A DNA stretch of 15,951 nt from Candidatus Omnitrophota bacterium (GTDB taxonomy: Bacteria > Omnitrophota > Gorgyraeia > JABMRG01 > JAFGKX01). Each line of letters begins with the position of its first letter. Position 1 is the first letter of the stretch. Made by a program: the position numbers and the translations under genes. Below are positions 2,827 through 15,951 of this stretch, piece by piece. The DNA is taken from NCBI GenBank assembly GCA_020354945.1, contig CP070655.1, positions 398,989 through 414,939 on the forward strand. Reading direction: 5' to 3'. The notes below the pieces were generated by a model that ran no database searches, was not told the origin of the DNA, and worked only from the letters and a program-made list of their open reading frames with translations.

Positions 2827-3213
2827 CTATTTTCTCTTCTTTTTTTCCGGATAACTTAAACTTTCACCTATCCACTTCAAATATTCTTTATTGCCGCCAA
2901 TTATAGGCAAATCTATTATCTCTGGAACTTCGTATTTGTGAATTTTTTTGACCAGCGTAACAATCTCCTTAAACATAATTGCCTTTGTTTTGGCTAAGAT
3001 TAAAACCTCGTGAGCCGAATCTATTTTAGCAGGGGCCCGCTGAAGGCGGGAGGGCGGAGGGGGAGTTGGAGCCCACCAGAAAAAGGATTCTACTTTTGGA
3101 ATGATATTTATACAGGCAACTTTTCTTTCCTCTAATAATACTTTCTTTATCTTTAAAGCTTCTTTCCTTGAAGAACAAGTAATCATAACTATCACATAAG
3201 TAGTCTCTTTCAT
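2827..3213 (-). CDS. cutA: Divalent-cation tolerance protein CutA with a Pro-rich in-frame insertion
   Basis: VMITC..EA..I...LLEERKVACINIIP.V.S.FWW, E.LILAKT and HKYEVPEII..PI..GN..YL.WI motifs. Confidence 0.9.
   Translation of the reverse strand: MKETTYVIVMITCSSRKEALKIKKVLLEERKVACINIIPKVESFFWWAPTPPPPSRLQRAPAKIDSAHEVLILAKTKAIMFKEIVTLVKKIHKYEVPEIIDLPIIGGNKEYLKWIGESLSYPEKKKRK
3028..3072. repeat. GC-rich palindrome-containing insertion inside cutA
   Basis: Encodes APTPPPPSRLQRAPA between WW and KI, where CutA normally has about 2 residues. Contains CCCGC-tgaag-GCGGG (3036-3050). Confidence 0.6.
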
Positions 3214-3752
3214 TTTGCCTTGATTACCTTTCCTAATAGTCCGAATTCATTTCCTCCGATATGCATTAAGGGATTGGCCCTAGTAATTAGATATTTTCCT
3301 CCAGGAAAATACTCATCCCTAACGTATGCCTGAAGGATTTTACCTACAATAAGCAAATGGTCGCCAGCCAGATATTTCTTGAATAGTTTGCACTCAAAAT
3401 GAGCAAGGCATTCTTTAATTCCGGGGGATTTTACCTTAGTGGATTTTTCTTCCGTTAGGCCTGCTTTTTTGATTTCACTTACTCCGGCAGGAAAATCCTT
3501 TGCGCAGATCCATAATTCTTTAAGTATCTCCCGATCAGGTATATTGACGACAAAATCTTTTGTTTCCAAGATGTTTTTCACTGTGTGGTGATCCGGGTCA
3601 GAAGCAAATATTACAAGTGGTGGTTCGGTAGAACATGGCATTACAAAACTAAAAGGGGCAGCATTAGAAACTCCTTTTAAATTTACCGTAGAAATCAACA
3701 CTACCGGCCGTGGCGCCAGAACCTTATACCACTGATTAAGACTCAATTCCAT
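3210..3752 (-). CDS. Flavin reductase-like (DIM6/NTAB, flavoredoxin-type) FMN-binding protein
   Basis: PRPVVLIST, NAAPFSF, HTVKNILETKDFVVNIP, IKECLAHFEC and GDHLLIVG motifs. Confidence 0.9.
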   Translation of the reverse strand: MELSLNQWYKVLAPRPVVLISTVNLKGVSNAAPFSFVMPCSTEPPLVIFASDPDHHTVKNILETKDFVVNIPDREILKELWICAKDFPAGVSEIKKAGLTEEKSTKVKSPGIKECLAHFECKLFKKYLAGDHLLIVGKILQAYVRDEYFPGGKYLITRANPLMHIGGNEFGLLGKVIKAK

Positions 3753-4634
3753 TTAATTACCTCGCCTTTTATAAGGATTAACATGTACCATAACATCTCG
3801 GATGTATGGGATTCGTTTAAGAAGTTTGGCCCTTACATTAGAAGCTATTTTATGGCCTTCATCTACAGTAATGTTACCATCCACTGCTACTTCTAAATCA
3901 ATAGTAAATGTAGAACCCCGACGGTGTACCTTGATATTATCTATGGTTTTAACTCCATTTATCTGTTGAGCAATAGCCCTGATATTATTCAAGAATACTG
4001 AACCGGGCTTCTCATCCATTATTATACCGATGTTTGAACGAATAAGGCCAAACCCTATTTTGATAATAAATCCTGAGACTATTATTCCTGCTAAAGGGTC
4101 CAGGTATAAAAATGAAATTCTGGCTCCTGCAATGCCTATTAGAGCCGCTACTGAGGAATAGGCATCTGAGCGATGGTGCCAGGCGTCAGCGATGACAGCC
4201 GGATTATTACTCATCCTGCCAACCTTAATGGTATATCGATATAATCCCTCTTTAAGGACTATGGAAATTATTGCCGCTAAAATGGCAATCATCAATGGGG
4301 TTTTGAACTGCCTGTGAATAATAGCTAAACTTGAAGATACGCCAGCAAAAACTCCTATTATAAGAATGATAAGAGAAACAAGACTTGCAGCAATTGTCTC
4401 AGCATTACCATGCCCATAGGGATGTTCTTCATCCGGGGGCCTGGCTCCAATACATATACCCGCATAGACAACACCTGATGTCAGGATATCGGAAAGGGAA
4501 TGAAGGCCATCGGCAATCATAGCCTTACTAAAACCTAATATGCCTGCCAAGAGCTTAAAGATCGTTAAGGCTATATTGGTAAAAAGCCCTATCTGTATAC
4601 AAATCTTAGGATTAAAAAAGTCAAATTTAGGCAT
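3753..4634 (-). CDS. Cation diffusion facilitator (CDF; FieF/YiiP-like) metal transporter
   Basis: S.AMIADGLHSLSD, PPDEEHPYGHG..E, ADAWHHRSD, DPLAG and C-terminal dimerisation domain ending VMVHVNP. Confidence 0.93.
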   Translation of the reverse strand: MPKFDFFNPKICIQIGLFTNIALTIFKLLAGILGFSKAMIADGLHSLSDILTSGVVYAGICIGARPPDEEHPYGHGNAETIAASLVSLIILIIGVFAGVSSSLAIIHRQFKTPLMIAILAAIISIVLKEGLYRYTIKVGRMSNNPAVIADAWHHRSDAYSSVAALIGIAGARISFLYLDPLAGIIVSGFIIKIGFGLIRSNIGIIMDEKPGSVFLNNIRAIAQQINGVKTIDNIKVHRRGSTFTIDLEVAVDGNITVDEGHKIASNVRAKLLKRIPYIRDVMVHVNPYKRRGN

Positions 4635-4655
4635 AAAAAGGCTCCAAAGCCCTTT

Positions 4656-4778
4656 CTAGCAGATAAACGTGCAAGGCCAACTAATTCCCTTAAAATGCTT
4701 TTCTTAATCTTAATAGTCTTCATAAAACCGACTGTAACTTTGGCAACGTTTTATTAAGTCTTTAAAACATTTCTGCAT
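4656..4778 (-). pseudogene. Truncated, frameshifted remnant of a nitroreductase 5' end (homolog of 1576-2145)
   Basis: ATG at 4778 gives MQKCFKDLIKRCQSYSRFYEDY*. After one extra T it continues KIKKSILRELVGLARLSA. Hand alignment to the intact gene: 88/108 nt and 28/36 aa identical. Confidence 0.88.
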
Positions 4779-4781
4779 TTT

Positions 4782-5069
4782 TTATCTTTTCGTGGTTACA
4801 TGGTTAGCAAGAGTTGGATTAATCTTCGCGAATGCAAGCACAAAAGCCCAGGTTAAAAGTATACATAATGTAATAGTTACTCCCAGCAGCAAATCTTTAA
4901 TTATATTTTCTGAAATAAGAAATAACTCACCATTCCAGAGATGGTCTATTACTCCAAAGAGTGCTCCTCCATAAAACATTAGATTTAGCCACCAGAGTTT
5001 TACACTTTTACTCTTTCTCCATGCTAGTGATGTAATCATAGCTCCTGCTAACGGTACAGTATAGCACAT
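4782..5069 (-). CDS. Small membrane protein of unknown function (about 3 TM helices)
   Basis: Strong RBS AAAGGAGGT (5086-5078), hydrophobic segments, GGALFGVIDHLWNGEL motif; directly follows hypE. Confidence 0.8.
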   Translation of the reverse strand: MCYTVPLAGAMITSLAWRKSKSVKLWWLNLMFYGGALFGVIDHLWNGELFLISENIIKDLLLGVTITLCILLTWAFVLAFAKINPTLANHVTTKR

Positions 5070-5091: not shown

Positions 5092-6078
5092 TCAGCATAT
5101 GCGTGGAAGCTGGTCGGTCTCCAGCATCGGCAGAATGCGAGTTGAACCAATTTTGGTTTTTAAATAGACCTCTTTTTTATGAACAGATGTAACCCTGCCA
5201 ATAATTGCAGCTTGTGGACCAATGGCACGTTTTACTTTTTTGGCATTTTTCTCGTTGACAAAACAGATGAATTTCCCCTCGTTGGCTACGTATAAAGGAT
5301 CGAATCCTAATACGTCGCATAATCTTTTTACGCTTGGTTTTATCGGAATATCCTTTTCATAAATCTCTATGCCAACATTCGAAGAATGTGCAATTTCATT
5401 TAATGCTGTAGCGAGCCCTCCCCTTGTTGGATCACGCATAACACTGATATTTTTCGAATCCTTAAGGCACCTTTCTACTTCAAAGTTTAGATTGCGGCAG
5501 TCACTTCTAATAGAGGGTGTAAATCCGAGCTTTTCTCTTGCATTCAGAACAGCCATTCCATGCTCAGCTATACCACCGTTTATGATAATAACATCATCAA
5601 CTTTTGCCTTTGTACCTACGGACCCTGAATAATCCATGGCTCCTATGCCAGCAGTGTTTATATATATTTTATCTGCTGCGCCTTTTTCTACAACTTTTAT
5701 ATCGCCTGTAACTATTAAAACTTTTGCTTTAGCAGCAGCCTGCTTTATTGAATGAGCTATTTTCTCCAATTGCTGAATTGGGAATCCTTCTTCAATAATA
5801 AAAGCCAAAGATATAAAAACAGGTTTGCCTCCCCTCATAGATATATCGTTTACAGTGCCAAAAACAGCAAGCTTGCCTATATCTCCTCCTGGGAAAAATA
5901 ATGGCTTTACAACATATGAATCTGTACTGAAAGTGAGTTTTTTCTCCTTTATATTAAGCTCAGCAGCATCTGAGAGTTCATTTAGAATCTTGTTTGAAAA
6001 CTTAAGACGCAAAGTTTCTATAAGCTCATGCATTAATCTGCCGCCATTTCCATGCGATAACGTTATTATTTTATTCAT
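5092..6078 (-). CDS. hypE: Hydrogenase maturation carbamoyl dehydratase HypE
   Basis: LSHGNGG, STDSYVV.PLFFPGGDIGKLAV.GTVND, TGD.KVV, MRDPTRGG, ANEG and C-terminal LPRIC. Confidence 0.97.
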   Translation of the reverse strand: MNKIITLSHGNGGRLMHELIETLRLKFSNKILNELSDAAELNIKEKKLTFSTDSYVVKPLFFPGGDIGKLAVFGTVNDISMRGGKPVFISLAFIIEEGFPIQQLEKIAHSIKQAAAKAKVLIVTGDIKVVEKGAADKIYINTAGIGAMDYSGSVGTKAKVDDVIIINGGIAEHGMAVLNAREKLGFTPSIRSDCRNLNFEVERCLKDSKNISVMRDPTRGGLATALNEIAHSSNVGIEIYEKDIPIKPSVKRLCDVLGFDPLYVANEGKFICFVNEKNAKKVKRAIGPQAAIIGRVTSVHKKEVYLKTKIGSTRILPMLETDQLPRIC

Positions 6079-7069
6079 ATTTATAATATGCTGCGCAGGT
6101 CCCTTCTGACGAAACCATGCACGGCCCTATTGGTCTCTCAGGTTTACATACTTTTTTAAATAACTTGCAATCTAAAGGCGATTCTATGCCTTGCAGCACT
6201 TCGCCGCAGATGCATCCTTTGGGTGAAGTTGCTTTAGGAATTTCTACCTTAAACTCTCTCTCTGCATCAAAATCTTTGTATACTTTTTTAAATCTTAATC
6301 CACTTTTTTTGATTCTTCCTAAACCTCGCCAGTCTGAATCCGCAGTCTCAAAAACTGAATATAAAATTCTTCTTGCTGCGGCATTTCCATTCTTTTTAAC
6401 AGCTCTTTTATATTCTATTTCTACTTTAGAGACACCTTTTTTAACTTGCTCAACCAGTCGCTTAATACCTTTTACAATGTCAATGTCATCAAAGCCGGTG
6501 ATAACACAGGGCATTTTATAACGCTTTGCAATCTCCACATAAGCAGCTGACCCTATAATAACGCTAACATGGCCCGGGCATACAAAACCATTTACCTTTA
6601 CCCTATCAGACTTAGCAATAGCAACGAGGGCAGGGGGAATAAGTTTAAAATTTGACAACACGAAAAAGTTTCTTATTTTTTGCCTTTTTGCCTCTAATAT
6701 CGTCGCCGCTATAGTTGGAGAGGTGGTCTCAAAACCAACCCCCATAAATACTATTCTTTTTGCTGGATTACTGCAAGCAATATTTAAGGCATCAAGGCAT
6801 GAATAGACTATTCGAATATCCGCACCGTCTCTTTTTGCATCCATAAAACTTGACTTAGTTCCCGGAACGCGCATCATATCGCCAAAGGTAGTCATAATAA
6901 CATCTTTTATCTTTACTATCTCTATTGCCCTATCGATGTCACTTTGATCAGTTACGCACACAGGGCAACCCGGTCCTGATATAAGCTCTATTTCTTTCGG
7001 CAGGAGTTTCTTTATGCCTGATCTGGCAATATTCACGGTATGCGTTCCGCATACTTCCATCAGTTTCAT
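6071..7069 (-). CDS. hypD: Hydrogenase maturation factor HypD (N-terminally short)
   Basis: MEVCGTHT, GPGCPVC, GFETT, PGHVS and C-terminal Cys cluster ending GPCMVSSEGTC. Confidence 0.97.
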   Translation of the reverse strand: MKLMEVCGTHTVNIARSGIKKLLPKEIELISGPGCPVCVTDQSDIDRAIEIVKIKDVIMTTFGDMMRVPGTKSSFMDAKRDGADIRIVYSCLDALNIACSNPAKRIVFMGVGFETTSPTIAATILEAKRQKIRNFFVLSNFKLIPPALVAIAKSDRVKVNGFVCPGHVSVIIGSAAYVEIAKRYKMPCVITGFDDIDIVKGIKRLVEQVKKGVSKVEIEYKRAVKKNGNAAARRILYSVFETADSDWRGLGRIKKSGLRFKKVYKDFDAEREFKVEIPKATSPKGCICGEVLQGIESPLDCKLFKKVCKPERPIGPCMVSSEGTCAAYYKYE

Positions 7070-7287
7070 CTTGCAACTTCCTCTAATTCCTTCAAAACCT
7101 TCAGGGTATTCTCTGCTTCGGTTTTTTCTAATTTTCCTATTGCAAAACCGGCATGAACGAGGACATAATCGTCCTCTTCGACGCTGCTTAGGATTCCAAG
7201 GGAAATCTTTTTACGCACGCCGCCGAAATCTACAACTGCCATATTCTCTTCTATTTTTTTAACCTTTGCAGGTATAGCAAGACACAT
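7066..7287 (-). CDS. hypC: Hydrogenase maturation chaperone HypC
   Basis: MCLAIP N-terminus and DYVLVHAGFAI. Confidence 0.97.
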   Translation of the reverse strand: MCLAIPAKVKKIEENMAVVDFGGVRKKISLGILSSVEEDDYVLVHAGFAIGKLEKTEAENTLKVLKELEEVAR

Positions 7288-8317
7288 AATATTGTCCTAA
7301 TGATATATTAAGGTCATTTACTGGTGTTATGTTGTTGGTAAAAACTTTAAAACCTGAATCGCTTAATTTTTTGATTGCCTTTGTCTTTAAGAATTTATTC
7401 TGGAATACTCCGCCGCTTAATGCGGTATTTTTAATACCGAGTTGCTTCGACAATTTTTTGACCATGCTAATGATAATCTCCGACACAGAGTTGTGAAACT
7501 TCGTTGCAATATATGGTTTATCTTTGTCTTTTCTTAAATCTCGCACCATGCCTAAAAATAGTTCACCCGTATCTATTGCATGGCAACCATTTTGCTTTAC
7601 CGTTGTAAACTCATATCTGTCATCTATTTTATCATCACACATTGCCTCGAGTTTTATAGGCCCTTCTGCTTCATATGAAGGGAATTTGCATATACCCAAA
7701 AGTGCAGCAGCAGCATCAAAAAGCCTGCCTGCACTGGAGCTTAATGGTGAATTTATATTTTTTGCCATCATTGATAATATTAGGTCTTTATCCTGTTTTT
7801 TCACATCGTTTAAGTAGCCGGTTGCTTTCTCTTTTAGGATACTTATTATCATCCTCCACGGCTCATATACAACTCTATCTCCACCCGGCATCATTCTGTA
7901 TTTAAGATGAGCCAGGCGTCTAAATCCGTTTTTGTTAACCATAAGAAACTCTCCGCCCCACATATTGCCGTCTGCGCCATAGCCTGTTCCATCAAAAGAG
8001 ACGCCAATAACAGGCTTTTTTAAATTGTGCTCACACATTACACTTGCAATATGAGCATGGTGATGCTGGACCGGAAATTGGTAGTAGCTAAATTCTTTTG
8101 CAAGGCGGGATGAAAAATAGCCAGGGTGTAAATCATAGGCAATAATATTAGGTTTAAGTTTTTCTGCGACCTTACGTATTTGGCTTTTAAAAAACGCATA
8201 GTTTTCTGCATTGGACAAATCGCCTATCTCAGGCCCGGGGTATAAATCCCTCCCTTCTGCAACAAGAAAGCGATTCTTTATATCCGCACCCAGAGCTAAT
8301 ATTGTTTTATTCAACAT
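7259..8317 (-). CDS. hypF: HypF carbamoyltransferase, Kae1-like C-terminal domain only
   Basis: LALGADIKN, IGDL, DLHPGY, VQHHHAH, DGTGYGADG.MWGGE, SSAGRLFDA, LSGGVFQN and ND..ISLGQ. Only 352 aa; no acylphosphatase, zinc-finger or YrdC domain. Confidence 0.9.
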   Translation of the reverse strand: MLNKTILALGADIKNRFLVAEGRDLYPGPEIGDLSNAENYAFFKSQIRKVAEKLKPNIIAYDLHPGYFSSRLAKEFSYYQFPVQHHHAHIASVMCEHNLKKPVIGVSFDGTGYGADGNMWGGEFLMVNKNGFRRLAHLKYRMMPGGDRVVYEPWRMIISILKEKATGYLNDVKKQDKDLILSMMAKNINSPLSSSAGRLFDAAAALLGICKFPSYEAEGPIKLEAMCDDKIDDRYEFTTVKQNGCHAIDTGELFLGMVRDLRKDKDKPYIATKFHNSVSEIIISMVKKLSKQLGIKNTALSGGVFQNKFLKTKAIKKLSDSGFKVFTNNITPVNDLNISLGQYYVSCYTCKG

Positions 8318-8549
8318 CGAATGATACTACCTCTATTCTTGTGCCTGGGAAAAATGTAAGTTCAAGCTCGGCGTCCTCAAGAGGGGTCCCTTTTGCCAAA
8401 ACGGCAAAGGTCTCCTTAAAGGAATCTTCTTTAACCCCAGTAAGAGCTCCTACTTTTAGTCTTACTTTTGATACTGAATTTGCACCTTCTTTCTTTGCAT
8501 GCTCCGATATACCTTTTATTATGGGTTCTATTAAATGTGATTCATGCAT
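8307..8549 (-). CDS. hypA: Nickel metallochaperone HypA lacking the zinc-finger domain
   Basis: MHE Ni-binding N-terminus, V.L.VG.LTGV...F...F...A.GT.LE.A.L pattern and C-terminal strand IEVVSFDVE; 80 aa, no Cys. Confidence 0.88.
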   Translation of the reverse strand: MHESHLIEPIIKGISEHAKKEGANSVSKVRLKVGALTGVKEDSFKETFAVLAKGTPLEDAELELTFFPGTRIEVVSFDVE

Positions 8550-8983
8550 TTTGTAATCTCCCCAAGCGTCTTTTCAACTTCTTCAGACATCTCTTCTCCA
8601 AAATTAACATTTTCCGGCTGAACACCTAACATATAAATATTAGCGCTGGTTTCTCTCTCTAAATATTCAATAAACATGTGGGGTGAGATATCATGAGTCG
8701 TAAAGCCGCTTTTTACTATATCGGGTTTTGTTAAAATTTCATATTCGCCGGGTTTTTTTCCTAAATGGACGGTGTCGACGATTAAGATGGTATCGGGTTC
8801 CTCCTTCGCAATCTTGCCAACATAATTCTCTGGAGCGCTTCCAGCATCAATGCATATCACCCTGATATTATCTTTTAATCTCTTAATGAGGGCAGGGCCA
8901 AAGCCATCATCTGCCCGCATTATATTACCGACCCCAACAACGACAATCTTTCCTTTAAATATGTCTTTGAGGGTAGCCTGCAT
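8531..8983 (-). CDS. hycI: Hydrogenase maturation endopeptidase, HycI type
   Basis: VGVGNIMRADDGFG, IDAGSAPENY, ILIVD, TTHDI and LGVQP...FGEEMS motifs. Confidence 0.9.
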   Translation of the reverse strand: MQATLKDIFKGKIVVVGVGNIMRADDGFGPALIKRLKDNIRVICIDAGSAPENYVGKIAKEEPDTILIVDTVHLGKKPGEYEILTKPDIVKSGFTTHDISPHMFIEYLERETSANIYMLGVQPENVNFGEEMSEEVEKTLGEITKCMNHI

Positions 8984-8987
8984 TTTT

Positions 8988-9605
8988 TTATTCTTTAGTA
9001 GTAAGGGTGGTTTCTCTCCTGCAACGGGCGCATAGAATCTTTATTCTGTCGGAACGACCATGGTCTTTTAATGCGGATATGATATTTTCATCTATGATTC
9101 CAAGGCTTTTAAGACGGGATAAATATAAGGTAGGGCTTGAAAAGGCGAGTTCACCTATTCTTTCAGCTATCCATTTTAAATGGTCTTTGCAAGCAATAGG
9201 CTCACCACATATCTCGCAAAGCTGCAGGTCCTTCTCAATCGTTTCATAGGATTCTTCTTTTCTATCGAAAAATGAAAGTTCCCAATCATTGGAAAGCTTT
9301 ATCCCTTCCTTATCTGCAATGCAGGCAGCTTCGCACTGACCGCAGAATATACAGACATCTGTATAATGAATCATACCTCTTTTTGCATTGCCATTTTCAT
9401 CAATTATATCTTTATGAGCGATCGCAGCTGCCGGGCAAATTTCTTCACATGCCAGACAGCCAATACACTTTTTCTCATCAAATTTGGGTTGTCCCCTGAA
9501 ATTGGGGTGGGGCTTATGCGGCTGCTTGGGAAATTTAGATGTATAAGGCCCTTTTATCAGCGCTTTAATAGCTTCTCTTAACTCCCTAACCTTTGGCAAT
9601 CTCAT
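8988..9605 (-). CDS. NuoI/HycF/MbhN-like 2x[4Fe-4S] ferredoxin subunit of a group 4 hydrogenase-type complex
   Basis: PYT.KFP...FRG.P, CIGCLACEEICP and CIFCGQCEAAC, plus extra CEICG and CARC pairs. Confidence 0.9.
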   Translation of the reverse strand: MRLPKVRELREAIKALIKGPYTSKFPKQPHKPHPNFRGQPKFDEKKCIGCLACEEICPAAAIAHKDIIDENGNAKRGMIHYTDVCIFCGQCEAACIADKEGIKLSNDWELSFFDRKEESYETIEKDLQLCEICGEPIACKDHLKWIAERIGELAFSSPTLYLSRLKSLGIIDENIISALKDHGRSDRIKILCARCRRETTLTTKE

Positions 9606-9940
9606 TCTTTCCCTTCCTTATCCTCAGCATACCTATCGACAACGCTTCCTTTCCAGAGCTTTACTCCGGATCTGTGCGCACCTCTTGCAATTGCATGAGC
9701 AGAAACAGGAGCTGTCAGTATCAAAAATATAATACATAAAAGTGATTTTATGCCTGCAGGTGTAAATCCTAACATCAAAAATACACCAAACATAATGCTG
9801 CATGTTCCCAGCGTCACGCATTTAGTAGAGGCCTGAAGACGATTATAAACATCCGGCAATCTTACCAAACCCAGGCATCCAAAAAAATCAAAGGCAAGCC
9901 CTACGAATATAAAAATTATACCAAATATATTATTCATCAA
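9602..9940 (-). CDS. mrpG: Mrp/Mnh antiporter subunit G (MbhC-like)
   Basis: G.LGLVRLPDVYNRLQASTK..TLG and LTAPVSAHAIAR. Confidence 0.93.
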   Translation of the reverse strand: MMNNIFGIIFIFVGLAFDFFGCLGLVRLPDVYNRLQASTKCVTLGTCSIMFGVFLMLGFTPAGIKSLLCIIFLILTAPVSAHAIARGAHRSGVKLWKGSVVDRYAEDKEGKE

Positions 9941-10328
9941 AATCCTTTCCCTCTAAATATTTCGATAATGCCAGCGCTCCTATAAAACTCTGCAAGGCCC
10001 AGGCTATTCCTATATCTATGTACCAGCTTCGGCCTGTAGGAATGCACAAAAGCGCGCAGAAACCAACAATGAGTATTCCAAGTATATCAACCGCTACAAT
10101 CCTGTCAGGTGCGGTAGGACCTTTTAATATACGGTAAAGACAAAAAATGCAGGATAACAGGAGTATGTAAAGAGCGCGTGTAAAAAGTGGTATATATGGA
10201 AGGTCCGGATAAAAGAGAATCTTTATAGGATAAAATATAATGACAGCAAAAATGCCCAGAATAATGAGTGTTCCTATAAACCACCTAAGTTTCTTCATGG
10301 CTATTAAAGGAGCCCCGGACTCCTTCAT
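9930..10328 (-). CDS. mrpF: Mrp/Mnh antiporter subunit F (MbhB-like) with N-terminal extension; alternative start at 10298
   Basis: LYRILKGPTAPDRIVAVD, YIDI and FIGALALSKYL motifs. Confidence 0.88.
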   Translation of the reverse strand: MKESGAPLIAMKKLRWFIGTLIILGIFAVIIFYPIKILFYPDLPYIPLFTRALYILLLSCIFCLYRILKGPTAPDRIVAVDILGILIVGFCALLCIPTGRSWYIDIGIAWALQSFIGALALSKYLEGKDFDE

Positions 10329-10819
10329 TCAAAAATCCTCCTTAAGATTTTCTCAAAACGTTCTACTACTATTTTTGTCGCTATTTCTATATCCTTATCC
10401 TTTACATCTATCCAGTGGATATAGAGAAACCCCCCATCCTGATCTACGTCAACACTTAATGTCCCCGGAGTTAATGTAATAGAATTTGCCAGAAATGTTA
10501 AACCAGTCTCAGATTTTAAAGTTGTCTTTACCTTAACAATTCCCGGGTGTATCGGCACATCCGGATGACTTACTCTGTAGGCAACATCTATATTTGCCTT
10601 GATACACTCCCAGATAAACAAAGGTAAGTAATAGGCAAACCAGAAGTATCTTTTAATATGTGTAAACAGCTGTGGCCTCTGAACAAACATATCTCCAGTC
10701 ATAAAGGCTACAAAACCGGCAACTAAAACCCCGACTAAAAGATGCTGTAGGTCTGGTGGCCAGCTTAAAAGGAACCATACAAAAAGGCCCAATATAAATA
10801 GTATAATTCTACTTCTCAT
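10325..10819 (-). CDS. mrpE: Mrp/Mnh antiporter subunit E (MbhA-like)
   Basis: KANIDVA, IHPGIV, LANSITLTPGTL and LYIHWID. Confidence 0.95.
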   Translation of the reverse strand: MRSRIILFILGLFVWFLLSWPPDLQHLLVGVLVAGFVAFMTGDMFVQRPQLFTHIKRYFWFAYYLPLFIWECIKANIDVAYRVSHPDVPIHPGIVKVKTTLKSETGLTFLANSITLTPGTLSVDVDQDGGFLYIHWIDVKDKDIEIATKIVVERFEKILRRIFE

Positions 10820-12312
10820 TTAATAGCCTCAAATATAACAGCAGCATAATCTTTTCCGATATATACAGCGTCTGTTGCTGCTTTAAGAAATACCTCCCTT
10901 ATTCCCGGAATCAAAAGTGCCCCTCCTACTATTGAAATTAAGGCTAATATGACCATTGATAATCTCATAGTAAATGGGACTTCTTTAATATTCTTCCATT
11001 TATCTTTCAATTTTCCAAAGAAGGCGTATCTTTGAAGTTTTAGATAATATCCCAGTGTTACGATGCTTACCAAAACAGCAATTAATGCCAGTAGGTAATG
11101 GCGGCTCTGTATAGCTGCAAAGATAATAATCAGTTTGCTCCAGAAGCCGCTTAAAGGAGGAATTCCTGATATAGACATAGAACCTATTAAACTTGAAGTT
11201 CCTGTTATCGGCATCCGAGCATTTAATCCACCCATCTCTCTTAAGTCCCTGGTTCCTGTAGAATACTCTATTGCACCTGAGTTTAAAAACAGAAGCGATT
11301 TAAATATGGCGTGATTGATTAGATGAAAGAGCGCGCCCAGTATAGCAAGCGGTGTTGCTATCCCTATTGCTAAAACTATATATCCCATCTGGCTGATACT
11401 GGAATATGCCAGCATCCTCTTTATATCTTCTTGCCCTATAGCCAGAAGTCCTCCAGCCACCATAGAGATGGTTCCAAGAATCAGCAAAATATTCAACATA
11501 GCAGGTTGAGCTCCTAACACATTGAAAAATATTCTAATCAATGCATATATACCAAGGACCTTGATTAAAAGTCCGGAAAGCATAGCAGAAATAGGCGCTG
11601 GAGCTGATGGATGGGCATCCGGCAGCCAGGCATGAAATGGCATTATTGCTGCTTTTAAACCGAATCCTGTTAAAAATAGAACAGATACAAATAGAACCAA
11701 CTTGCTGTTTGTTCCGCTTGCTGTTAAAACTCTTGCCATATCAGCCATATTTAATGTTGAAGTAAGGCTATATAAAAGTGCTATTCCTAAAAGAATAAAT
11801 AATGATGCAACTTCTCCCATTACCATATACTTAAACGACGCCTCAAGCTCTTCATGCTCGATACCAAAAGCCACCAGTGCATAGCTGGCAATCGAAGCTA
11901 TCTCTAAAAAGACAAAGAGGTTAAACATATCCCCTGTTACAATCACACCATTCATGCCTCCAAGCATAAGCATAAATAAAGTATAAAATTTCCATTTGGC
12001 TGTGTATTTTTTCATATAGCCTATAGAAAATATGGCAACTAAAAAGGCAACCAGATTAACCACAACCAGCATAAAAGAGCTTAATCCATCTAAGACCATA
12101 GAGATGCCTATTGGCGGAATCCATCCTCCTATTTTATAAACCTGCGCACCAACTTCTTTAACTAAAAATATGGAATATATGGATAAACAAACCAAAACAA
12201 GCATTCCTAAATTGGCTAAGGAATCAGATAATCCCTTTATTCTTTTGCCCAAAAGAGAAATTAAAAATGCGCAGCCCAATGGTATAACTACGAATAGGGG
12301 GATAATGCTCAA
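10816..12312 (-). CDS. mrpD: Mrp/Mnh antiporter subunit D (MbhH-like proton-translocating subunit)
   Basis: GGW.PP.GI..VLDGLS, TGDMFNLFVFLE, LEASFKY, K...PFH.WLPDAH..AP, KRMLAYSSISQ.GY and GIPPLSGFWSK. Confidence 0.92.
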   Translation of the reverse strand: MSIIPLFVVIPLGCAFLISLLGKRIKGLSDSLANLGMLVLVCLSIYSIFLVKEVGAQVYKIGGWIPPIGISMVLDGLSSFMLVVVNLVAFLVAIFSIGYMKKYTAKWKFYTLFMLMLGGMNGVIVTGDMFNLFVFLEIASIASYALVAFGIEHEELEASFKYMVMGEVASLFILLGIALLYSLTSTLNMADMARVLTASGTNSKLVLFVSVLFLTGFGLKAAIMPFHAWLPDAHPSAPAPISAMLSGLLIKVLGIYALIRIFFNVLGAQPAMLNILLILGTISMVAGGLLAIGQEDIKRMLAYSSISQMGYIVLAIGIATPLAILGALFHLINHAIFKSLLFLNSGAIEYSTGTRDLREMGGLNARMPITGTSSLIGSMSISGIPPLSGFWSKLIIIFAAIQSRHYLLALIAVLVSIVTLGYYLKLQRYAFFGKLKDKWKNIKEVPFTMRLSMVILALISIVGGALLIPGIREVFLKAATDAVYIGKDYAAVIFEAIK

Positions 12313-12647
12313 CCTTTTAGTCTCCTTATCTTTGTTATATCAAAAGTTCTATATCTATCATAAATCCTTACAGCGATTGCCGCTATCAGGGCAGTAGTTG
12401 CCAGTCCAATAACTATGGCAGTTAAGACCAAAGCCTGCGGTAAAGGGTCAACCATATTCTTTACTATTTGGTCAGCCGCTAATATCGGCGCACGGCCTGC
12501 AAACCGATAACCAAACAGGATAAATGCGAGGTTGACAGCAGATTCCATTATTATCAGACCTATAATAATCTTGATAATGTTCCTCTTTACCAGGATGCAA
12601 TATAATCCAACAGAAAAAAGAACAAGGCACAAAAGATAGACTATCAT
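12309..12647 (-). CDS. mrpC: Mrp/Mnh antiporter subunit C (MbhG-like)
   Basis: KRNIIKIIIGL.IME.AVN and DPLPQALVLTAIVIG. Confidence 0.95.
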   Translation of the reverse strand: MIVYLLCLVLFSVGLYCILVKRNIIKIIIGLIIMESAVNLAFILFGYRFAGRAPILAADQIVKNMVDPLPQALVLTAIVIGLATTALIAAIAVRIYDRYRTFDITKIRRLKG

Positions 12648-13099
12648 TTTTCTCCTTTTGAATTTATTTTCAATAATACCAGAGCTACAAATATGGCAAA
12701 AAGGCCTGCTCCAACCTTAAGCGAGATAGCAATATTACATAAAGGTATAATCCCTGCACTGAATAATTTAAAGGGGGCACCTTTATTCATAAAAAAGTTT
12801 AAAAAGAAATACCCGCCAACAAAGCCTATTACGGCAACGGAGAGAAACATAACTGCTCCTATGCCTTCAAATAAACTGGCTATGGGCCTTGAAACCTTTT
12901 TTAAGGCTACTTCCTTTCCAAATGCCAACATAAGATGTATAAATGACAATGCAATTATCACTCCACCTGCAAATCCTCCTCCTGGGGTAAGGTGTCCATG
13001 CAATACTATATAGATACCATATAAAAGTATAAGCCCCACGGTAAGCCGTGTAATGGTCTTTACTATTAAGGTCATACCTTTGGTATCTTTTTTAGTCAT
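12644..13099 (-). CDS. mrpB: Mrp/Mnh antiporter subunit B (MbhF-like)
   Basis: HGHLTPGGGFAGG and N.AI.LKV motifs. Confidence 0.92.
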   Translation of the reverse strand: MTKKDTKGMTLIVKTITRLTVGLILLYGIYIVLHGHLTPGGGFAGGVIIALSFIHLMLAFGKEVALKKVSRPIASLFEGIGAVMFLSVAVIGFVGGYFFLNFFMNKGAPFKLFSAGIIPLCNIAISLKVGAGLFAIFVALVLLKINSKGEK

Positions 13100-13637
13100 C
13101 CTCTTTTACAACCTCGTCTTTCCTCTTACGTCCAATCCGGCGCAAAACCGTTAACACACCGATTACTGCCGTAAAAAGCACTGTTGCCTCACCCAGTGTA
13201 TCATAAGCACGGAAATCTAAAATTACCGAAGTTACCAAATTGGTTGCTCCGGTCTTTGTCTGTCCGGTCTCTATAAAATTTTTAGCCACTCTCATTATGG
13301 GCTGACCAAAAACAGGCAATTCCTTTAACGCAGAATAAGCAAAGAATAAAAATACCCCAATAAATATCAAGCCCATTATTGCAGTTAAAAATCCTCGTAT
13401 ATCTTTGGTTGATATGCTTTCTCTTTTCGCTATAGCTCTAATTAATATAATAAGACAAAGAAGCTCTACTACCAATTGAACAATGGCTAAATCTGGTGCT
13501 TTTAAGATTAAAAATGCTGCGGTCAAACCCAGGCCAACTGCTCCCAAAGCAATGATTGAAGATAGAAGGTCTTTTATCTGGACCGCAATAATAGCAGCCG
13601 CGATCATAAATAACAAAAGTATGTATAGCTCAATCAT
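13092..13637 (-). CDS. DUF4040 plus MrpA C-terminal part (MbhD+MbhE-like fusion)
   Basis: APDLAIVQLVVE (DUF4040) followed by NLVTSVILDFRAYDTLGEATVL. Confidence 0.88.
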   Translation of the reverse strand: MIELYILLLFMIAAAIIAVQIKDLLSSIIALGAVGLGLTAAFLILKAPDLAIVQLVVELLCLIILIRAIAKRESISTKDIRGFLTAIMGLIFIGVFLFFAYSALKELPVFGQPIMRVAKNFIETGQTKTGATNLVTSVILDFRAYDTLGEATVLFTAVIGVLTVLRRIGRKRKDEVVKEDD

Positions 13638-13640
13638 TGA

Positions 13641-15281
13641 CTACCTCATTAAAATGAAAAATAGAATCAGCGCCCCCAATAGCATCCAGATAAGATATGT
13701 AGTTAAAATCCCTGTATGGAAAAGGCGTAATATCTTTGTAAAAAACAAACAGAATTTTTTCAACTGCTCATAAATATCAAACGCACGCTCTTGGGCCAGT
13801 TTATAAATTCCATTTAAGATCGGAATATCTTTTATGGTATTATAAAATCCGGTTCCTGAAACTCTCATATCGGGATGTTCTTTAATGAGTTCTCCGCCTA
13901 CAAATGCATCAGTTACTCTTAGGTTTTTGGAAATGTTACCGAGCATATAGATAATCCCGCCTATTACTATACCAACCAATATCAATAAAGTGGCAAGATT
14001 TACATTCCATATCCCCGTATAAGCTATTTCGCCTTTAACACTTGGCCCGATAAATAGGCCTATAGGTATCCTGTAAGCAAATACTCCAAAAATAATACAA
14101 AGGCCGGCTAATATTACCGACGGTGCCCACATAGAGAAACCGACTTCTTTGACTCCTTTTCTATCTTTTGCTGGCTGTCCTAAAAATACAGAATGGGTCG
14201 CTTTCATAAAGCTCGCCAGGGTTAAAGCTGAACCAAACATTGCGGAAATCAACCAGATTATCCAGATCCTAGAACCGCTCTTCGCTGTTTCAATCACGCC
14301 CTGATATATCATCCATTTTGAAAAGAATCCATTAAGGGGCGGTACACCTGAAATTGCTAATGAGGCTATTAAAAATGCGGCGAAACTTACAGGCATAAAC
14401 TTAGATAATCCACCCAATTTTTCCAAATCTGAAGTGTTGGCCCTTTTTTCAGCTGCGCCACCTGATAAGAACAGGCATGATTTATATATAGCATTGTTTA
14501 GCATATGGAAAAGCCCGCCGGCAATTCCTATTGGATTACCCGTTCCAATCCCTAAGACCATATAACCAACCTGGCTGACTGCATGATAACCTAAAAGCCT
14601 TTTTAAATCATGTTGAACCAATGCCATCATAACAGCAGCAATAATGGTAAAGCTGCCCAAAGCCATCAAAAATATATTCATACTTAAATTTATCACAAAC
14701 ATATCCATTGTAATCCTTGCTAGGAAGTATATCCCCAGTAATTTATCCAATGATGCAGGCAAAAAGGCAACTACAGGAACAGGGGCATCGGAAGCTACAT
14801 CAGGAACCCAGGTATGAAAAGGTATTGCCCCGGCTTTGGCAAACGCACCTGCTGCAAAACAAAGATATGCCCAGATGGCGAGTTTGGTATCAAATGCAAT
14901 ACTTATCTTATCCATCTGAAGCGAACCTGTGACCCGCCACACAAAGGCTAATCCTAAAAGGATAAGGGCGTCTGTTCCACCGATTATTATAAAGCTCTTT
15001 TTGGCTGTATAAGAGGTGTGTTTTTTTTCTCCGAAACCTATTAATAGATATAAAAGAAGGGCCAGAAATCCCCAGAATACAACAAACAATATAAGGTTAT
15101 TGGAAAATACAACTCCAAGCGAAGCAACTAACGTAAGGATGATATATGAATAATATCGGATGAGCCCTTTCTTTTTACGCATGAAACCAAAGGAATATAG
15201 AAGAATTAATAAAGAAAAGAAACCGATAAATATTCCTACAAAATTGGATAAGTTGTCGAATCTAAAAAATTCAAAAATCAT
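13641..15281 (-). CDS. NuoL/MrpA-like antiporter-type membrane subunit, N-terminally truncated
   Basis: K.GA.PFHTW.PD, DLKRLLGYHAVSQVGYM, FHMLNNA.YKS.LFL, GVPPLNGF.SKW, and a C-terminal lateral helix plus last TM (HTG.L..Y). Confidence 0.88.
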   Translation of the reverse strand: MIFEFFRFDNLSNFVGIFIGFFSLLILLYSFGFMRKKKGLIRYYSYIILTLVASLGVVFSNNLILFVVFWGFLALLLYLLIGFGEKKHTSYTAKKSFIIIGGTDALILLGLAFVWRVTGSLQMDKISIAFDTKLAIWAYLCFAAGAFAKAGAIPFHTWVPDVASDAPVPVVAFLPASLDKLLGIYFLARITMDMFVINLSMNIFLMALGSFTIIAAVMMALVQHDLKRLLGYHAVSQVGYMVLGIGTGNPIGIAGGLFHMLNNAIYKSCLFLSGGAAEKRANTSDLEKLGGLSKFMPVSFAAFLIASLAISGVPPLNGFFSKWMIYQGVIETAKSGSRIWIIWLISAMFGSALTLASFMKATHSVFLGQPAKDRKGVKEVGFSMWAPSVILAGLCIIFGVFAYRIPIGLFIGPSVKGEIAYTGIWNVNLATLLILVGIVIGGIIYMLGNISKNLRVTDAFVGGELIKEHPDMRVSGTGFYNTIKDIPILNGIYKLAQERAFDIYEQLKKFCLFFTKILRLFHTGILTTYLIWMLLGALILFFILMR

Positions 15282-15886
15282 TATTGTTCCTTATGGGCCC
15301 TGGCTATATTTGTGCAGTGTCTGGCGATATTTCCTGTAAAATCGAGCATATCAAAATACATATTTGCCGCTCTTGGCTCGCATATACCTTTAGCCAGGCG
15401 CTTCATATGCTCAGTTCTATATTTTTCTATCAATTCTTTAATCTCATCACCGTTTTTTAAAATCATATCTAAGAGTTCTATCTTTTCCTCATCTAAAAAC
15501 TTCATGGTTAAATCCAGCGACCGGCGCATTTTTTCAAAAACTTCCTTGTACTGCTCTATGCCCAGTTCACTGAATAATAATTTCTCCGCAACCTTAATTT
15601 CAATTCGTTCAATTAAAGAACGGAATTCATCACCCATACGCTCTATATTTTGGGCAGTCTGACCCAGTATAACAAATTCTTTTTGTCCTTTTTTATCAAA
15701 TGCCTTGGAACCCTGTATGATATTGGCGGTTACCTCTTTTTCTAAATCATCGATTATGCGCTCTTTGTTCAAAGCACTGTTTAAATAATGGGCATCATTT
15801 TCCATAAGGCCTTGATAAACAAAATTGGCCATATCAGTGATAGCCTTGGACATCTGTTTTAAGGATGTTTTAATAACGTCTTTCAC
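15281..15886 (-). CDS. Stand-alone PhoU-domain protein resembling the cytoplasmic domain of Na+/Pi cotransporters
   Basis: GTG start with AAGGAG RBS. Two helical repeats: E..IDDLEKE..NIERMGD, and H..RL..G.C...A...Y.D.L....NIARHC.NI. No TM segment. Confidence 0.75.
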   Translation of the reverse strand: MKDVIKTSLKQMSKAITDMANFVYQGLMENDAHYLNSALNKERIIDDLEKEVTANIIQGSKAFDKKGQKEFVILGQTAQNIERMGDEFRSLIERIEIKVAEKLLFSELGIEQYKEVFEKMRRSLDLTMKFLDEEKIELLDMILKNGDEIKELIEKYRTEHMKRLAKGICEPRAANMYFDMLDFTGNIARHCTNIARAHKEQ

Positions 15887-15951
15887 TTTAATTTCTCCTT
15901 TAATTTTTCGGTCTTTTTCTGAGAAAGCTTAATCAGGTCTTCTCCGTTATA
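15883..15951 (-). CDS. Partial CDS (C-terminus), possibly the tail of the [NiFe]-hydrogenase large subunit
   Basis: Open frame YNGEDLIKLSQKKTEKLKEKLK* whose TGA overlaps the next GTG (GTGA). The DLIKLS..KT segment resembles, from memory, MbhL-type C-terminal extensions. The identity rests mainly on context. Confidence 0.45.
   Translation of the reverse strand, partial: YNGEDLIKLSQKKTEKLKEKLK

What the first reader, a model, noticed from the sequence alone, without database searches (positions are those of the whole stretch)
5092..8983. Streamlined [NiFe]-hydrogenase maturation system: mini-HypA, half-HypF, trimmed HypD, no HypB
Seen: hycI-hypA-hypF-hypC-hypD-hypE all overlap one another, so no room exists for missing domains or hypB, and there are no stops or frameshifts. 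Known: canonical maturation needs HypA with a zinc finger, the NTPase HypB and a four-domain HypF. Inference: both zinc-finger modules and two nucleotide-using modules (HypB, YrdC) are missing while catalytic cores are intact. This looks like a coherent minimal or alternative route to the NiFe(CN)2CO site rather than random decay. Best candidate for an undescribed system in this window.
Basis: partly seen in the sequence, partly recalled or inferred. Interest (0 to 1): 0.85.

Follow-up and report, generated by a model that had tools for sequence, protein, structure and literature searches.

The report
Reduced hydrogenase maturation set, Omnitrophota
This uncultured Omnitrophota bacterium builds its membrane-bound nickel-iron hydrogenase with conserved short helper proteins (a one-domain HypF, a zinc-free 80-residue HypA, an N-trimmed HypD and no HypB), which makes it a natural test of which parts of the textbook maturation pathway are really needed.

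Summary
On the minus strand, hycI, hypA (80 aa), hypF (352 aa, Kae1-like domain only), hypC, hypD (332 aa, N-terminal about 20-30 residues missing) and hypE overlap one another without stops. They end an operon for an Mrp-linked group-4 [NiFe] hydrogenase.

The short forms are not decay. The same operon recurs in many Candidatus Omnitrophota genomes. dN/dS is about 0.1, and contigs of three other studies show the same gap-free junctions.

HypB, a full-length HypF, a HypF N-terminal half and a second HypA were not found in this 89%-complete MAG. Nor were they found in the most contiguous relatives that carry the half-HypF.

The "missing" hydrogenase is an assembly break: the last 66 bases of the window encode the C-terminal tail of the large subunit.

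The set is not one coherent package. The reductions are nested: half-HypF is the widest, then mini-HypA, then trimmed HypD. HypB is rare across the class.

The half-HypF has a studied precedent, Cupriavidus necator HypF1, which arose independently. I found no paper on a zinc-free HypA, yet it is a large, diverse family. How a Kae1-only HypF gets an activated carbamoyl group is unknown.

This scan had already noted the same pattern on other Omnitrophota genomes. Verdict: real, a new variant of a known pathway, moderate interest.

The parts
15883..15951 (-). 3' end of the [NiFe] hydrogenase large-subunit gene (last 22 codons plus stop), cut by the contig end
   Evidence: The translation matches the extreme C-termini of the 392-412-aa large subunits of 8 relatives' loci. 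The best is L049 residues 371-392, 86% identity, E 5e-14. The G003 large subunit carries Pfam Complex1_49kDa + NiFeSe_Hases.
15281..15886 (-). PhoU-domain protein (201 aa) between the large subunit and the Mrp module
   Evidence: Pfam PhoU, E 1e-15. It sits in the same place in G002 (L048) and G024 (L051/L023) at 61-66% identity. It was not found in the loci of G003, G008, G010, L022 or L025.
9602..15281 (-). Mrp-type membrane module: 546-aa MrpA/D-like, MbhD/E, MnhB, MnhC, MrpD, MnhE, MrpF, MnhG
   Evidence: Pfam Proton_antipo_M, MbhD, MbhE, MnhB, Oxidored_q2, MNHE, MrpF_PhaF, PhaG_MnhG_YufB. The order is the same in 8 relatives' loci.
8988..9605 (-). NuoI/HycF/MbhN-like 2x[4Fe-4S] subunit (205 aa) with a C-terminal extension
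   Evidence: Pfam Fer4 families and NCBIfam HycF-like NF009053 below its cut-off. Eight cluster cysteines plus an extra CxxC...CxxC pair are invariant in 8 of 8 aligned sequences.
8531..8983 (-). HycI-type maturation endopeptidase (150 aa)
   Evidence: Pfam HycI 62.1 bits. TIGR00072 scores 114.8 against a cut-off of 47.45. TIGR00142 hycI scores 113.9 against 119.1.
8307..8549 (-). Mini-HypA (80 aa): the nickel-binding domain only, with the zinc module cleanly excised
   Evidence: Pfam HypA positions 1-68 of 112, 58.2 bits. The alignment with full-length HypA of G004 and G018 shows a 25 + 6-column gap exactly over the CxxC...CxxC part. The AF2 model has pLDDT 91.8. Foldseek to T. kodakarensis HypA 3a43_B gives TMq 0.91, rmsd 1.7 A.
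7259..8317 (-). Half-HypF (352 aa): the Kae1-like carbamoyl-transfer domain only
   Evidence: TIGR00143 positions 390-739 of 741, 275.6 bits against a cut-off of 466.1; Pfam HypF_C + HypF_C_2. It aligns to residues 400-745 of 3vth_A with the conserved motif blocks intact. The stop-to-stop frame is only 355 aa.
7066..7287 (-). HypC (73 aa)
   Evidence: Pfam HupF_HypC positions 1-65 of 65, 94.5 bits. TIGR00074 scores 75.2 against 48. The N-terminus is Met-Cys.
6071..7069 (-). HypD (332 aa) lacking the canonical N-terminal segment
   Evidence: Pfam HypD positions 20-351 of 351, 490.7 bits; TIGR00075 positions 34-366 of 372. The alignment shows about 28 N-terminal residues present in G004, G018 and L024 but absent here and in 6 relatives. 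There is no hidden N-terminus upstream.
5092..6078 (-). HypE (328 aa), full length, ending in a C-terminal cysteine
   Evidence: TIGR02124 positions 2-332 of 332, 414.3 bits against 251.6. The translation ends ...PRIC.

Best explanation
The region is the maturation tail of an operon for an Mrp-linked, membrane-bound group-4 [NiFe] hydrogenase of a Candidatus Omnitrophota bacterium. It is a working, evolutionarily reduced Hyp pathway.

Inferred sequence of events:
1. [quoted passage not shown]
2. HypE dehydrates it to thiocyanate.
3. HypC-HypD assemble Fe(CN)2CO and HypC hands it to the large subunit.
4. The zinc-free HypA delivers nickel through its N-terminal Met-His-Glu site, without a HypB NTPase.
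5. HycI then cuts the C-terminal extension of the large subunit. The end of that extension is visible at the edge of the window.

Shown: gene content, domain content, conservation, selection and fold.

Inferred: every biochemical step, and above all where the activated carbamoyl group comes from. The acylphosphatase and YrdC-like sites are absent. The donor is therefore either carbamoyl-AMP made in trans or carbamoyl phosphate used directly by the Kae1-like domain. For trans supply, the only YrdC-fold proteins found are the housekeeping TsaC/Sua5 and, in most genomes, a NodU/CmcH-type carbamoyltransferase. I cannot choose between these routes.
For: Domain content.

Taxon: the titles of 4 of 5 related loci name Candidatus Omnitrophota.

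The same operon order (large subunit, Mrp module, NuoI-like, HycI, 80-aa HypA, half-HypF, HypC, HypD, HypE) appears in G003, G008, G010, G024, L022 and L025. It appears in part in G002 and L026. Identities are HypA 72-86%, HypF 55-66%, HypD 64-72%.

Class sample of 41 genomes:
- Half-HypF only in 16, plus 1 fragment at a contig end; full-length HypF in 3.
- HypD in 20, exactly the HypF holders plus the fragment case.
- Mini-HypA in 14, none of them with HypB.

Phylum sample of 151 genomes: 39 have HypF. Of those, 28 are half only, 9 are full length and 2 are unclear.

Most contiguous relatives: G166 and G171 (listed as 1 contig each) and G022 (6 contigs) have half-HypF, mini-HypA, no HypB and a single YrdC-domain gene far away.

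Selection: dN/dS is 0.08-0.14 where it can be computed. pS is 0.63-0.92, so saturated. The values are the same for the short genes as for HypE and MrpD.

Fold and motifs:
- The mini-HypA folds as the complete nickel domain and keeps the MHE N-terminus.
- The half-HypF keeps the motif blocks of the Kae1-like site of 3VTH.

The hydrogenase:
- The G003 large subunit has both NiFe cysteine motifs and a C-terminal extension.
- The window holds the tail of its own large subunit.

Other support:
- A carB fragment at a contig edge indicates that carbamoyl phosphate synthesis is present.
- Independent contigs confirm the junctions.
- Precedent: C. necator HypF1 has the same architecture. PMC9100943 (passages read) says it 'likely requires carbamoyl adenylate'.
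Against: No expression or activity data exist.

The genome is an 89%-complete MAG of 129 pieces, and the window's own large-subunit gene is cut off. Absences in G000 alone prove little.

Carbamoyl-AMP is described as highly labile and channelled inside full-length HypF (PMC6022934, passages read). A freely diffusing donor is therefore chemically awkward.

The NodU/CmcH-type carbamoyltransferase is not specific to half-HypF genomes. It is present in 14 of 16 of them against 14 of 25 others. It is missing from G005 and G006, which have half-HypF.

[quoted passage not shown] If that were general, it would argue against a Kae1-only HypF working alone in an anaerobe.

The same-genus genome G001 (94% complete) lacks HypF, HypA and HypD, so the operon is dispensable or patchy.
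Confidence: 0.8

Rival explanations
1. The missing parts (full-length HypF or its N-terminal half, HypB, a zinc-bearing HypA) exist but lie in the unassembled or unbinned 11% of the genome, so the pathway is canonical after all.
For: G000 is 89% complete and made of 129 pieces. The hydrogenase large subunit itself is cut off at the contig end, which shows that relevant genes are missing from the assembly.
Against: The same short genes without the missing parts are seen in relatives listed as 1, 1 and 6 contigs (G166, G171, G022). In the phylum sample, 28 of 39 HypF-bearing genomes have the half form only. None of the 14 mini-HypA genomes has HypB. I could not check whether the '1 contig' records are truly closed, because G000 is also listed as 1 contig.
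Confidence: 0.07
2. The hyp genes are non-functional relics of a hydrogenase system that is being lost in a reduced genome.
For: The genomes are small. The same-genus G001 lacks the whole set. Hyp gene content is patchy across the class.
Against: There are no stops or frameshifts. dN/dS is about 0.1 with saturated synonymous sites, equal to HypE and MrpD. HypA is exactly 80 aa in 9 of 9 loci. Catalytic motifs are kept. Translationally coupled overlaps are kept.
Confidence: 0.04
3. The organism is host- or partner-dependent and receives the missing activities or intermediates (nickel loading, an activated carbamoyl donor) from another cell.
For: Seymour et al. 2023 (PMC10066038; title, abstract and the passages found) describe host-dependent traits in Omnitrophota. 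The genome is 1.1 Mb.
Against: Nothing here points to such transfer. Labile intermediates such as carbamoyl-AMP (PMC6022934, passages read) are unlikely to cross cells. The same half-HypF also occurs in larger genomes of the phylum, up to 3.2 Mb in G172.
Confidence: 0.03
4. The truncations are assembly or gene-calling artefacts.
For: It is a metagenome assembly of modest depth.
Against: Contigs of three other studies cross the junctions without gaps. Eight or more independent relatives' assemblies show the same gene boundaries.
Confidence: 0.01

Closest known systems
Cupriavidus necator (Ralstonia eutropha) H16 HypF1, megaplasmid pHG1 (NC_005241.1 10034-11218, 394 aa)
   Same: The domain content is identical: Pfam HypF_C + HypF_C_2 only, with no acylphosphatase, zinc fingers or YrdC domain. 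It sits in a hyp operon directly before hypC-hypD-hypE.
   Different: HypF1 coexists with a full-length HypF2 on the same plasmid, and with full-length HypA and HypB. Here the half form is the only HypF found. In the tree HypF1 is sister to HypF2 (SH-aLRT 99), apart from the Omnitrophota clade (SH-aLRT 100), so the truncations arose independently. The host is an aerobe with group 1, 2 and 3 hydrogenases. This one is presumably an anaerobe with a group-4 enzyme.
Canonical HypABCDEF plus endopeptidase pathway (E. coli, Thermococcus kodakarensis)
   Same: HypC, HypE and HycI are full length. The HypD core motifs, the HypA nickel site and fold, and the HypF transfer domain are all conserved.
   Different: There is no HypB of either the GTPase type or the Mrp/MinD ATPase type. 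HypA has no zinc module. HypF has no acylphosphatase, zinc-finger or YrdC domains. HypD has no N-terminal segment.
t6A synthesis by TsaC/Sua5 (YrdC fold) plus TsaD/Kae1
   Same: It is a naturally split YrdC-fold plus Kae1-fold system in which an acyl-adenylate made by one protein is used by the other. This is a working analogy for a Kae1-only HypF. The genome has one Sua5-like gene and one TsaD.
   Different: The intermediate (threonylcarbamoyl-AMP) and the acceptor (tRNA) differ. No evidence here links TsaC/Sua5 to HypF.
Group 4 Mrp-linked membrane-bound hydrogenases (Mbh type); Omnitrophota enzymes are called group 4g by Seymour et al. 2023 (passages read)
   Same: Relatives have the small, NuoC-like, large and NuoH-like subunits, followed by Mrp-type subunits and a NuoI-like subunit.
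   Different: I did not classify this enzyme's subgroup. The hyp genes are fused to the end of the structural operon. In some genomes a PhoU-domain gene sits inside it.

Membership tests
HypF (carbamoyltransferase, NCBIfam TIGR00143 equivalog) | Score over the curated cut-off for the whole four-domain protein | tested here: not met
   275.6 bits against a cut-off of 466.1. Only profile positions 390-739 of 741 are matched.
HypF | N-terminal acylphosphatase domain, two zf-HYPF fingers and a YrdC-like domain | tested here: not met
   None was found in the 352-aa protein. All are found by the same scan in the full-length HypF of G018. The open frame extends only 3 codons upstream.
HypF | Kae1-like carbamoyl-transfer domain with its conserved metal and nucleotide motifs | tested here: met
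   Pfam HypF_C 93.7 bits and HypF_C_2 259.8 bits. The alignment to 3vth_A residues 400-745 has the His-rich block, the DGTGYG block and the C-terminal GG/ND blocks conserved. Which residues bind the metal is recalled, not tested.
Truncated HypF of the C. necator HypF1 kind | Same one-domain architecture | tested here: met
   HypF1 has HypF_C + HypF_C_2 only, in 394 aa.
Truncated HypF of the C. necator HypF1 kind | Common descent with HypF1 | tested here: not met
   HypF1 groups with C. necator HypF2 (SH-aLRT 99). The window's protein lies in a 9-row Omnitrophota clade (SH-aLRT 100). The backbone is unresolved.
HypA (nickel metallochaperone) | N-terminal Met-His-Glu nickel site and the alpha/beta nickel-domain fold | tested here: met
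   M1, H2 and E3 are invariant in 10 of 10 aligned sequences. The model has pLDDT 91.8. Matches to 3a43_B, 5yxy and 6g81 give TMq 0.83-0.91. Pfam HypA scores 58.2 against 28.9.
HypA | Zinc site of two CxxC pairs | tested here: not met
   There is no cysteine in the 80-aa protein. The gap lies exactly over the CxxC...CxxC part of the full-length HypAs. TIGR00100 scores 52.7 against a cut-off of 88.1.
HypD | Family score and conserved motif blocks (CGxH, GPGCPVC, GFETT, PGHVS, C-terminal cysteines) | tested here: met
   Pfam scores 490.7 bits and TIGR00075 scores 465.2 against 192.8. The blocks are invariant in 12 of 12 aligned sequences.
HypD | Canonical N-terminal segment (Pfam positions 1-19; about 28 residues) | tested here: not met
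   It is absent here and in G002, G003, G008, G010, G012 and G024. It is present in the other 12 full matches.
HypE | Equivalog score and C-terminal cysteine | tested here: met
   TIGR02124 scores 414.3 against 251.6. The protein ends ...PRIC.
HypC | Family score and cysteine at position 2 | tested here: met
   TIGR00074 scores 75.2 against 48. The protein starts Met-Cys.
HypB | A HypB gene anywhere in the genome | tested here: not met
   TIGR00073 gives 0 matches among 11 candidates scored. The cobW-profile (PF02492) hit is an HflX-like GTPase by my reading of its translation. PF10609 (Mrp/MinD type) gives 0 matches at E <= 1e-10. The genome is 89% complete.
[NiFe] hydrogenase operon | A large subunit with NiFe cysteine motifs and a cleavable C-terminal extension | tested here: inconclusive
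   Only the last 22 codons lie in the window. PF00346 and PF00374 find nothing else in G000. The orthologue in G003 has both motifs and the extension.

The most novel reading that the evidence does not exclude
A whole bacterial lineage, and for the zinc-free HypA probably several phyla, may mature [NiFe] hydrogenases with a five-protein core. In this reading the Kae1-only HypF carbamoylates HypE without any dedicated acylphosphatase or adenylating domain. It would do so either directly from carbamoyl phosphate or from an adenylate made by a housekeeping YrdC-fold enzyme. Nickel would be inserted by an 80-residue HypA with no NTPase partner. That would redefine the minimal requirements of the pathway. 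It would also mean that the channelled three-site mechanism of full-length HypF is an optimisation and not a necessity.
Probability: 0.35. Interest if true: 0.7.

Novelty: new variant of a known kind. Interest (0 to 1): 0.48.

Why it matters
The textbook pathway treats HypA with its zinc site, the NTPase HypB and the four-domain HypF as standard parts. Here a whole lineage appears to do without the zinc site, without HypB and without three of the four HypF domains, while keeping everything else under strong selection.

This gives a natural minimal system for three questions:
- Which activated carbamoyl donor can the Kae1-like domain accept?
- Can nickel insertion run without nucleotide hydrolysis?
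- What do the HypA zinc module and the HypD N-terminus contribute?

It also bears on genome annotation. Profile cut-offs (TIGR00143, TIGR00100) miss these short forms, so hydrogenase maturation capacity can be under-called in uncultured phyla. A compact maturation set could also help heterologous hydrogenase expression.

Tried and rejected
Hidden HypD N-terminus. The frame upstream of the hypD start is open for about 46 codons. It has no start codon and no likeness to canonical HypD. Rejected.

Second HypA or HypB in G000. By my reading of their translations the weak hits are a rubrerythrin-like protein and an HflX-like GTPase; no family scan was run on them. Rejected.

Split HypF. Apart from the Kae1-like gene, the only TIGR00143 hits in G000 are these:
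- a stand-alone 99-aa acylphosphatase;
- one Sua5-like gene, fused to what looks like a low-molecular-weight phosphatase domain (my reading of the translation);
- TsaD;
- a 571-aa NodU/CmcH carbamoyltransferase.
There is no zinc-finger piece. Stand-alone acylphosphatases occur in relatives whether or not they have HypF.

NodU/CmcH carbamoyltransferase as the dedicated carbamoyl-AMP supplier. The co-occurrence is only loose: 14 of 16 half-HypF genomes against 14 of 25 others, and it is absent from G005 and G006. Not supported as a general answer.

HydG-type radical-SAM route in this genome. There is no HydG in G000.

'No hydrogenase in the genome'. This is explained by the contig break.

Literature:
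- 'HypF1' + 'truncated' + 'acylphosphatase': 0 papers.
- 'truncated HypA': 0 papers.
- HypA/zinc/lacks/HypB: 12 papers listed. In the 2025 review PMC12134894 the passages found describe only the zinc-bearing HypA.
- Omnitrophota papers PMC10066038 and PMC8542988: no occurrence of hypA, hypF or maturation in the main text.
- These searches cover open-access full text only.

RNA evidence: no RNA holder listed.

Complex prediction was not used. A half-HypF plus Sua5 job would at best pass by likeness to solved full-length HypF.

The genomic context of mini-HypAs outside Omnitrophota could not be examined. Their wider range therefore rests on sequence make-up and on Atlas labels, one of them below score 0.9.

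Rows left out of the tree: L018, L019 and L021, which duplicate genomes already in it, and the half-HypFs of G012, G017, G022 and G037, which were not fetched.

Full report
WHAT IS THERE

The window is one whole contig of a metagenome-assembled genome. Completeness is 89%. All genes run on the minus strand. In order of transcription they are:
- a PhoU-domain gene;
- a full Mrp-type membrane module;
- a NuoI/HycF-like iron-sulfur subunit;
- hycI, hypA, hypF, hypC, hypD and hypE.

THE SHORT FORMS

HypA
- It is 80 aa, has no cysteine, and matches Pfam HypA positions 1-68 of 112.
- Against full-length HypA from two relatives, the missing part is exactly the CxxC...CxxC zinc module. The last strand of the nickel domain follows directly.
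- An AlphaFold2 model built on 54 zinc-free HypAs has pLDDT 91.8.
- The model superposes on the nickel domain of T. kodakarensis HypA (3a43_B, TMq 0.91, rmsd 1.7 A). It also superposes on HypA in the HyhL-HypA complex.

HypF
- It is 352 aa and matches only positions 390-739 of the 741-position HypF model. These are the two Pfam Kae1-like subdomains.
- The stop-to-stop frame is 355 aa.
- It aligns to residues 400-745 of Caldanaerobacter HypF (3VTH) with the conserved blocks intact.

HypD
- It starts three residues before the conserved MEVCG block. It lacks about 28 N-terminal residues that canonical HypDs of the same phylum have.
- The open frame upstream is an off-frame of hypC and is unrelated to HypD.

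HypC, HypE (ending in cysteine) and HycI are ordinary.

NOT AN ARTEFACT, NOT DECAY

Contigs of three other studies, 90-99% alike, cross hycI-hypA-hypF and hypC-hypD without gaps. The only indels listed in the best-supported rows are a compensating pair inside hypE.

Record titles of related loci name Candidatus Omnitrophota. The whole operon, with an exactly 80-aa HypA and a 353-364-aa HypF, recurs in G003, G008, G010, G024, L022 and L025. It recurs in part in G002 and L026.

Pairwise dN/dS against four relatives is 0.08-0.14 where it can be computed. Synonymous sites are saturated. The values for HypA, HypF and HypD match those for HypE and MrpD.

WHERE IS THE HYDROGENASE

Searches for large-subunit profiles find nothing in G000. 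In relatives, a 392-412-aa group-4 large subunit lies just upstream of the Mrp module. In G002 and G024 it lies upstream of the PhoU gene.

The last 66 bases of the window encode 22 residues plus a stop. These match the extreme C-termini of those large subunits in 8 loci. The best match is 86% identity, E 5e-14. The structural genes are therefore cut off by the contig end.

The G003 orthologue has both NiFe cysteine motifs and a C-terminal extension, which is the substrate for HycI.

ARE THE MISSING PARTS ELSEWHERE

In G000 I found no HypB, no Mrp/MinD-type ATPase, no second HypA and no full-length or N-terminal HypF. G000 alone is weak evidence, so I looked at relatives.

In 41 genomes of the class:
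- 16 have only the half-HypF, plus one fragment at a contig end. 3 have a full-length HypF.
- HypD is present in exactly those 20 genomes.
- 14 have a mini-HypA, and none of these has HypB. 8 have a full-length HypA, and 4 of those have HypB.

In 151 genomes sampled across the phylum, 39 have HypF. 28 are half only, 9 are full length and 2 are unclear.

The most contiguous half-HypF genomes are G166, G171 and G022. They have mini-HypA next to hypF, no HypB, and a single YrdC-domain gene far away. G118, with a full-length HypF, has two YrdC domains, one of them inside HypF.

NESTED, NOT ONE PACKAGE

- Genus g4 (G004-G006) combines half-HypF with full-length HypA, HypB, a canonical HypD and a group-3-type hydrogenase.
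- G022, G030 and G037 combine half-HypF and mini-HypA with a full-N-terminus HypD.
- The trimmed HypD is confined to 7 genomes. All of them have the Mrp-linked operon form.
- HypB is missing even from genomes with canonical HypF and HypA: G029 and G039, G118.

The reductions therefore accumulated stepwise.

WHAT IS KNOWN

C. necator H16 HypF1 on pHG1 is 394 aa and has the same two Pfam domains and nothing else. Fan et al. 2022 (PMC9100943, passages read) say three things about it:
- it comprises only one of the three domains of canonical HypF;
- it 'likely requires carbamoyl adenylate';
- it seemed inactive anaerobically in E. coli.

In a 25-row tree of the Kae1-like domain, HypF1 is sister to C. 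necator HypF2 (SH-aLRT 99). The window's clade of 9 Omnitrophota half-HypFs is separate (SH-aLRT 100). At least two independent truncations are therefore needed. The backbone is unresolved, so the number inside Omnitrophota is open.

For the zinc-free HypA I found no paper. It is nevertheless a large family:
- Of the 150 best 50%-identity cluster representatives, 69 are 92 aa or shorter. About six of those are fragments. 68 of the 69 lack any CxxC and 54 start MHE.
- By contrast, 63 of the 81 longer ones have two CxxC.
- Some sources name them HypA/HybF.
- The Atlas lists 80-81-aa HypA clusters of 1238 and 119 members, commonest in Omnitrophota. A third cluster of 140 members is commonest in Acidobacteriota, but its score of 0.88 makes it a lead only.

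HOW IT MOST LIKELY WORKS

After carbamoyl activation the pathway looks canonical: HypE, HypC-HypD, the endopeptidase.

The open step is the donor for the Kae1-like domain. Full-length HypF makes carbamate, then carbamoyl-AMP, and channels these labile intermediates between its sites (PMC6022934, passages read). Two routes are possible here:
- Trans supply of carbamoyl-AMP. The only YrdC-fold candidates are the housekeeping Sua5/TsaC and a NodU/CmcH carbamoyltransferase. The latter is common but not universal among half-HypF genomes.
- Direct use of carbamoyl phosphate, for which carB is present.

I cannot separate these routes. Nickel insertion by the MHE site of a zinc-free HypA without an NTPase is inferred from gene content only.

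EARLIER NOTES OF THIS SCAN

After my own analysis I found that the scan had already described the same reduced set on other Omnitrophota genomes, with the same HypF1 comparison. My results agree with those notes.

Other notes describe a HydG plus HypC::HydE module next to [NiFe] hydrogenases with a zinc-free HypA. In my class sample HydG is over its cut-off in 19 of 41 genomes, not in G000. It is present in seven genomes that have hydrogenase-type large subunits but no HypF or HypD. This fits that lead but lies outside this finding.

VERDICT

This is a new variant of a known pathway, of moderate interest, with one real open mechanistic question.

Noticed in passing
window 15281-15886 (-): A PhoU-domain gene sits inside the hydrogenase operon, between the large subunit and the Mrp module. 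This holds here and in G002 and G024, but not in five other relatives' loci. Its role there is unknown.
   Followed up: partly
window 8988-9605 (-), residues about 125-205: The NuoI/MbhN-like iron-sulfur subunit has a C-terminal extension with an extra CxxC...CxxC pair. The pair is invariant in 8 of 8 aligned relatives. It may be a further metal site. Any link to the missing HypA zinc module is pure speculation.
   Followed up: partly
class sample G000-G040: HypD and HypF co-occur exactly, in 20 of 41 genomes. Seven genomes with hydrogenase-type large subunits but no HypF or HypD all carry HydG (G016, G019, G020, G027, G032, G033, G035). In three of them HydG is on the same contig as the large subunit (G020:C3, G027:C18, G035:C9). 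This suggests two alternative maturation modules in this class. Three genomes have a mini-HypA without HypF or HypD (G019, G025, G033).
   Followed up: partly
G001 (same genus as the window): The same-genus genome is 94% complete and 1.8 Mb against 1.1 Mb here. It lacks HypF, HypA, HypD and the group-4 large subunit, but has HydG and a NuoD-type protein. The operon is therefore variable within the genus.
   Followed up: no
window 2827-5069 (-): Directly downstream of hypE lie a 95-aa membrane protein, a cation-diffusion-facilitator transporter and a CutA1 divalent-ion-tolerance protein. The membrane protein is also found after hypE in G008. This may be a metal-handling neighbourhood.
   Followed up: no
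G000:C1:122866-124092 (+): The genome's only YrdC-domain gene is a 409-codon open frame. A Sua5/TsaC-like part is followed by what looks like a low-molecular-weight phosphatase domain (my reading of the translation). In G171 and G022 the YrdC gene also sits in long frames of 500 and 470 aa.
   Followed up: no
G000 as a whole: The genome is listed as 1 contig but is 129 pieces joined by 100-N spacers. Other genomes listed as 1 contig may be scaffolds of this kind too.
   Followed up: yes
G067:C3:13659-15221: One Omnitrophota genome has a HypF match to profile positions 2-518 only, in a 715-aa open frame. It may be a divergent or C-terminally altered HypF.
   Followed up: no
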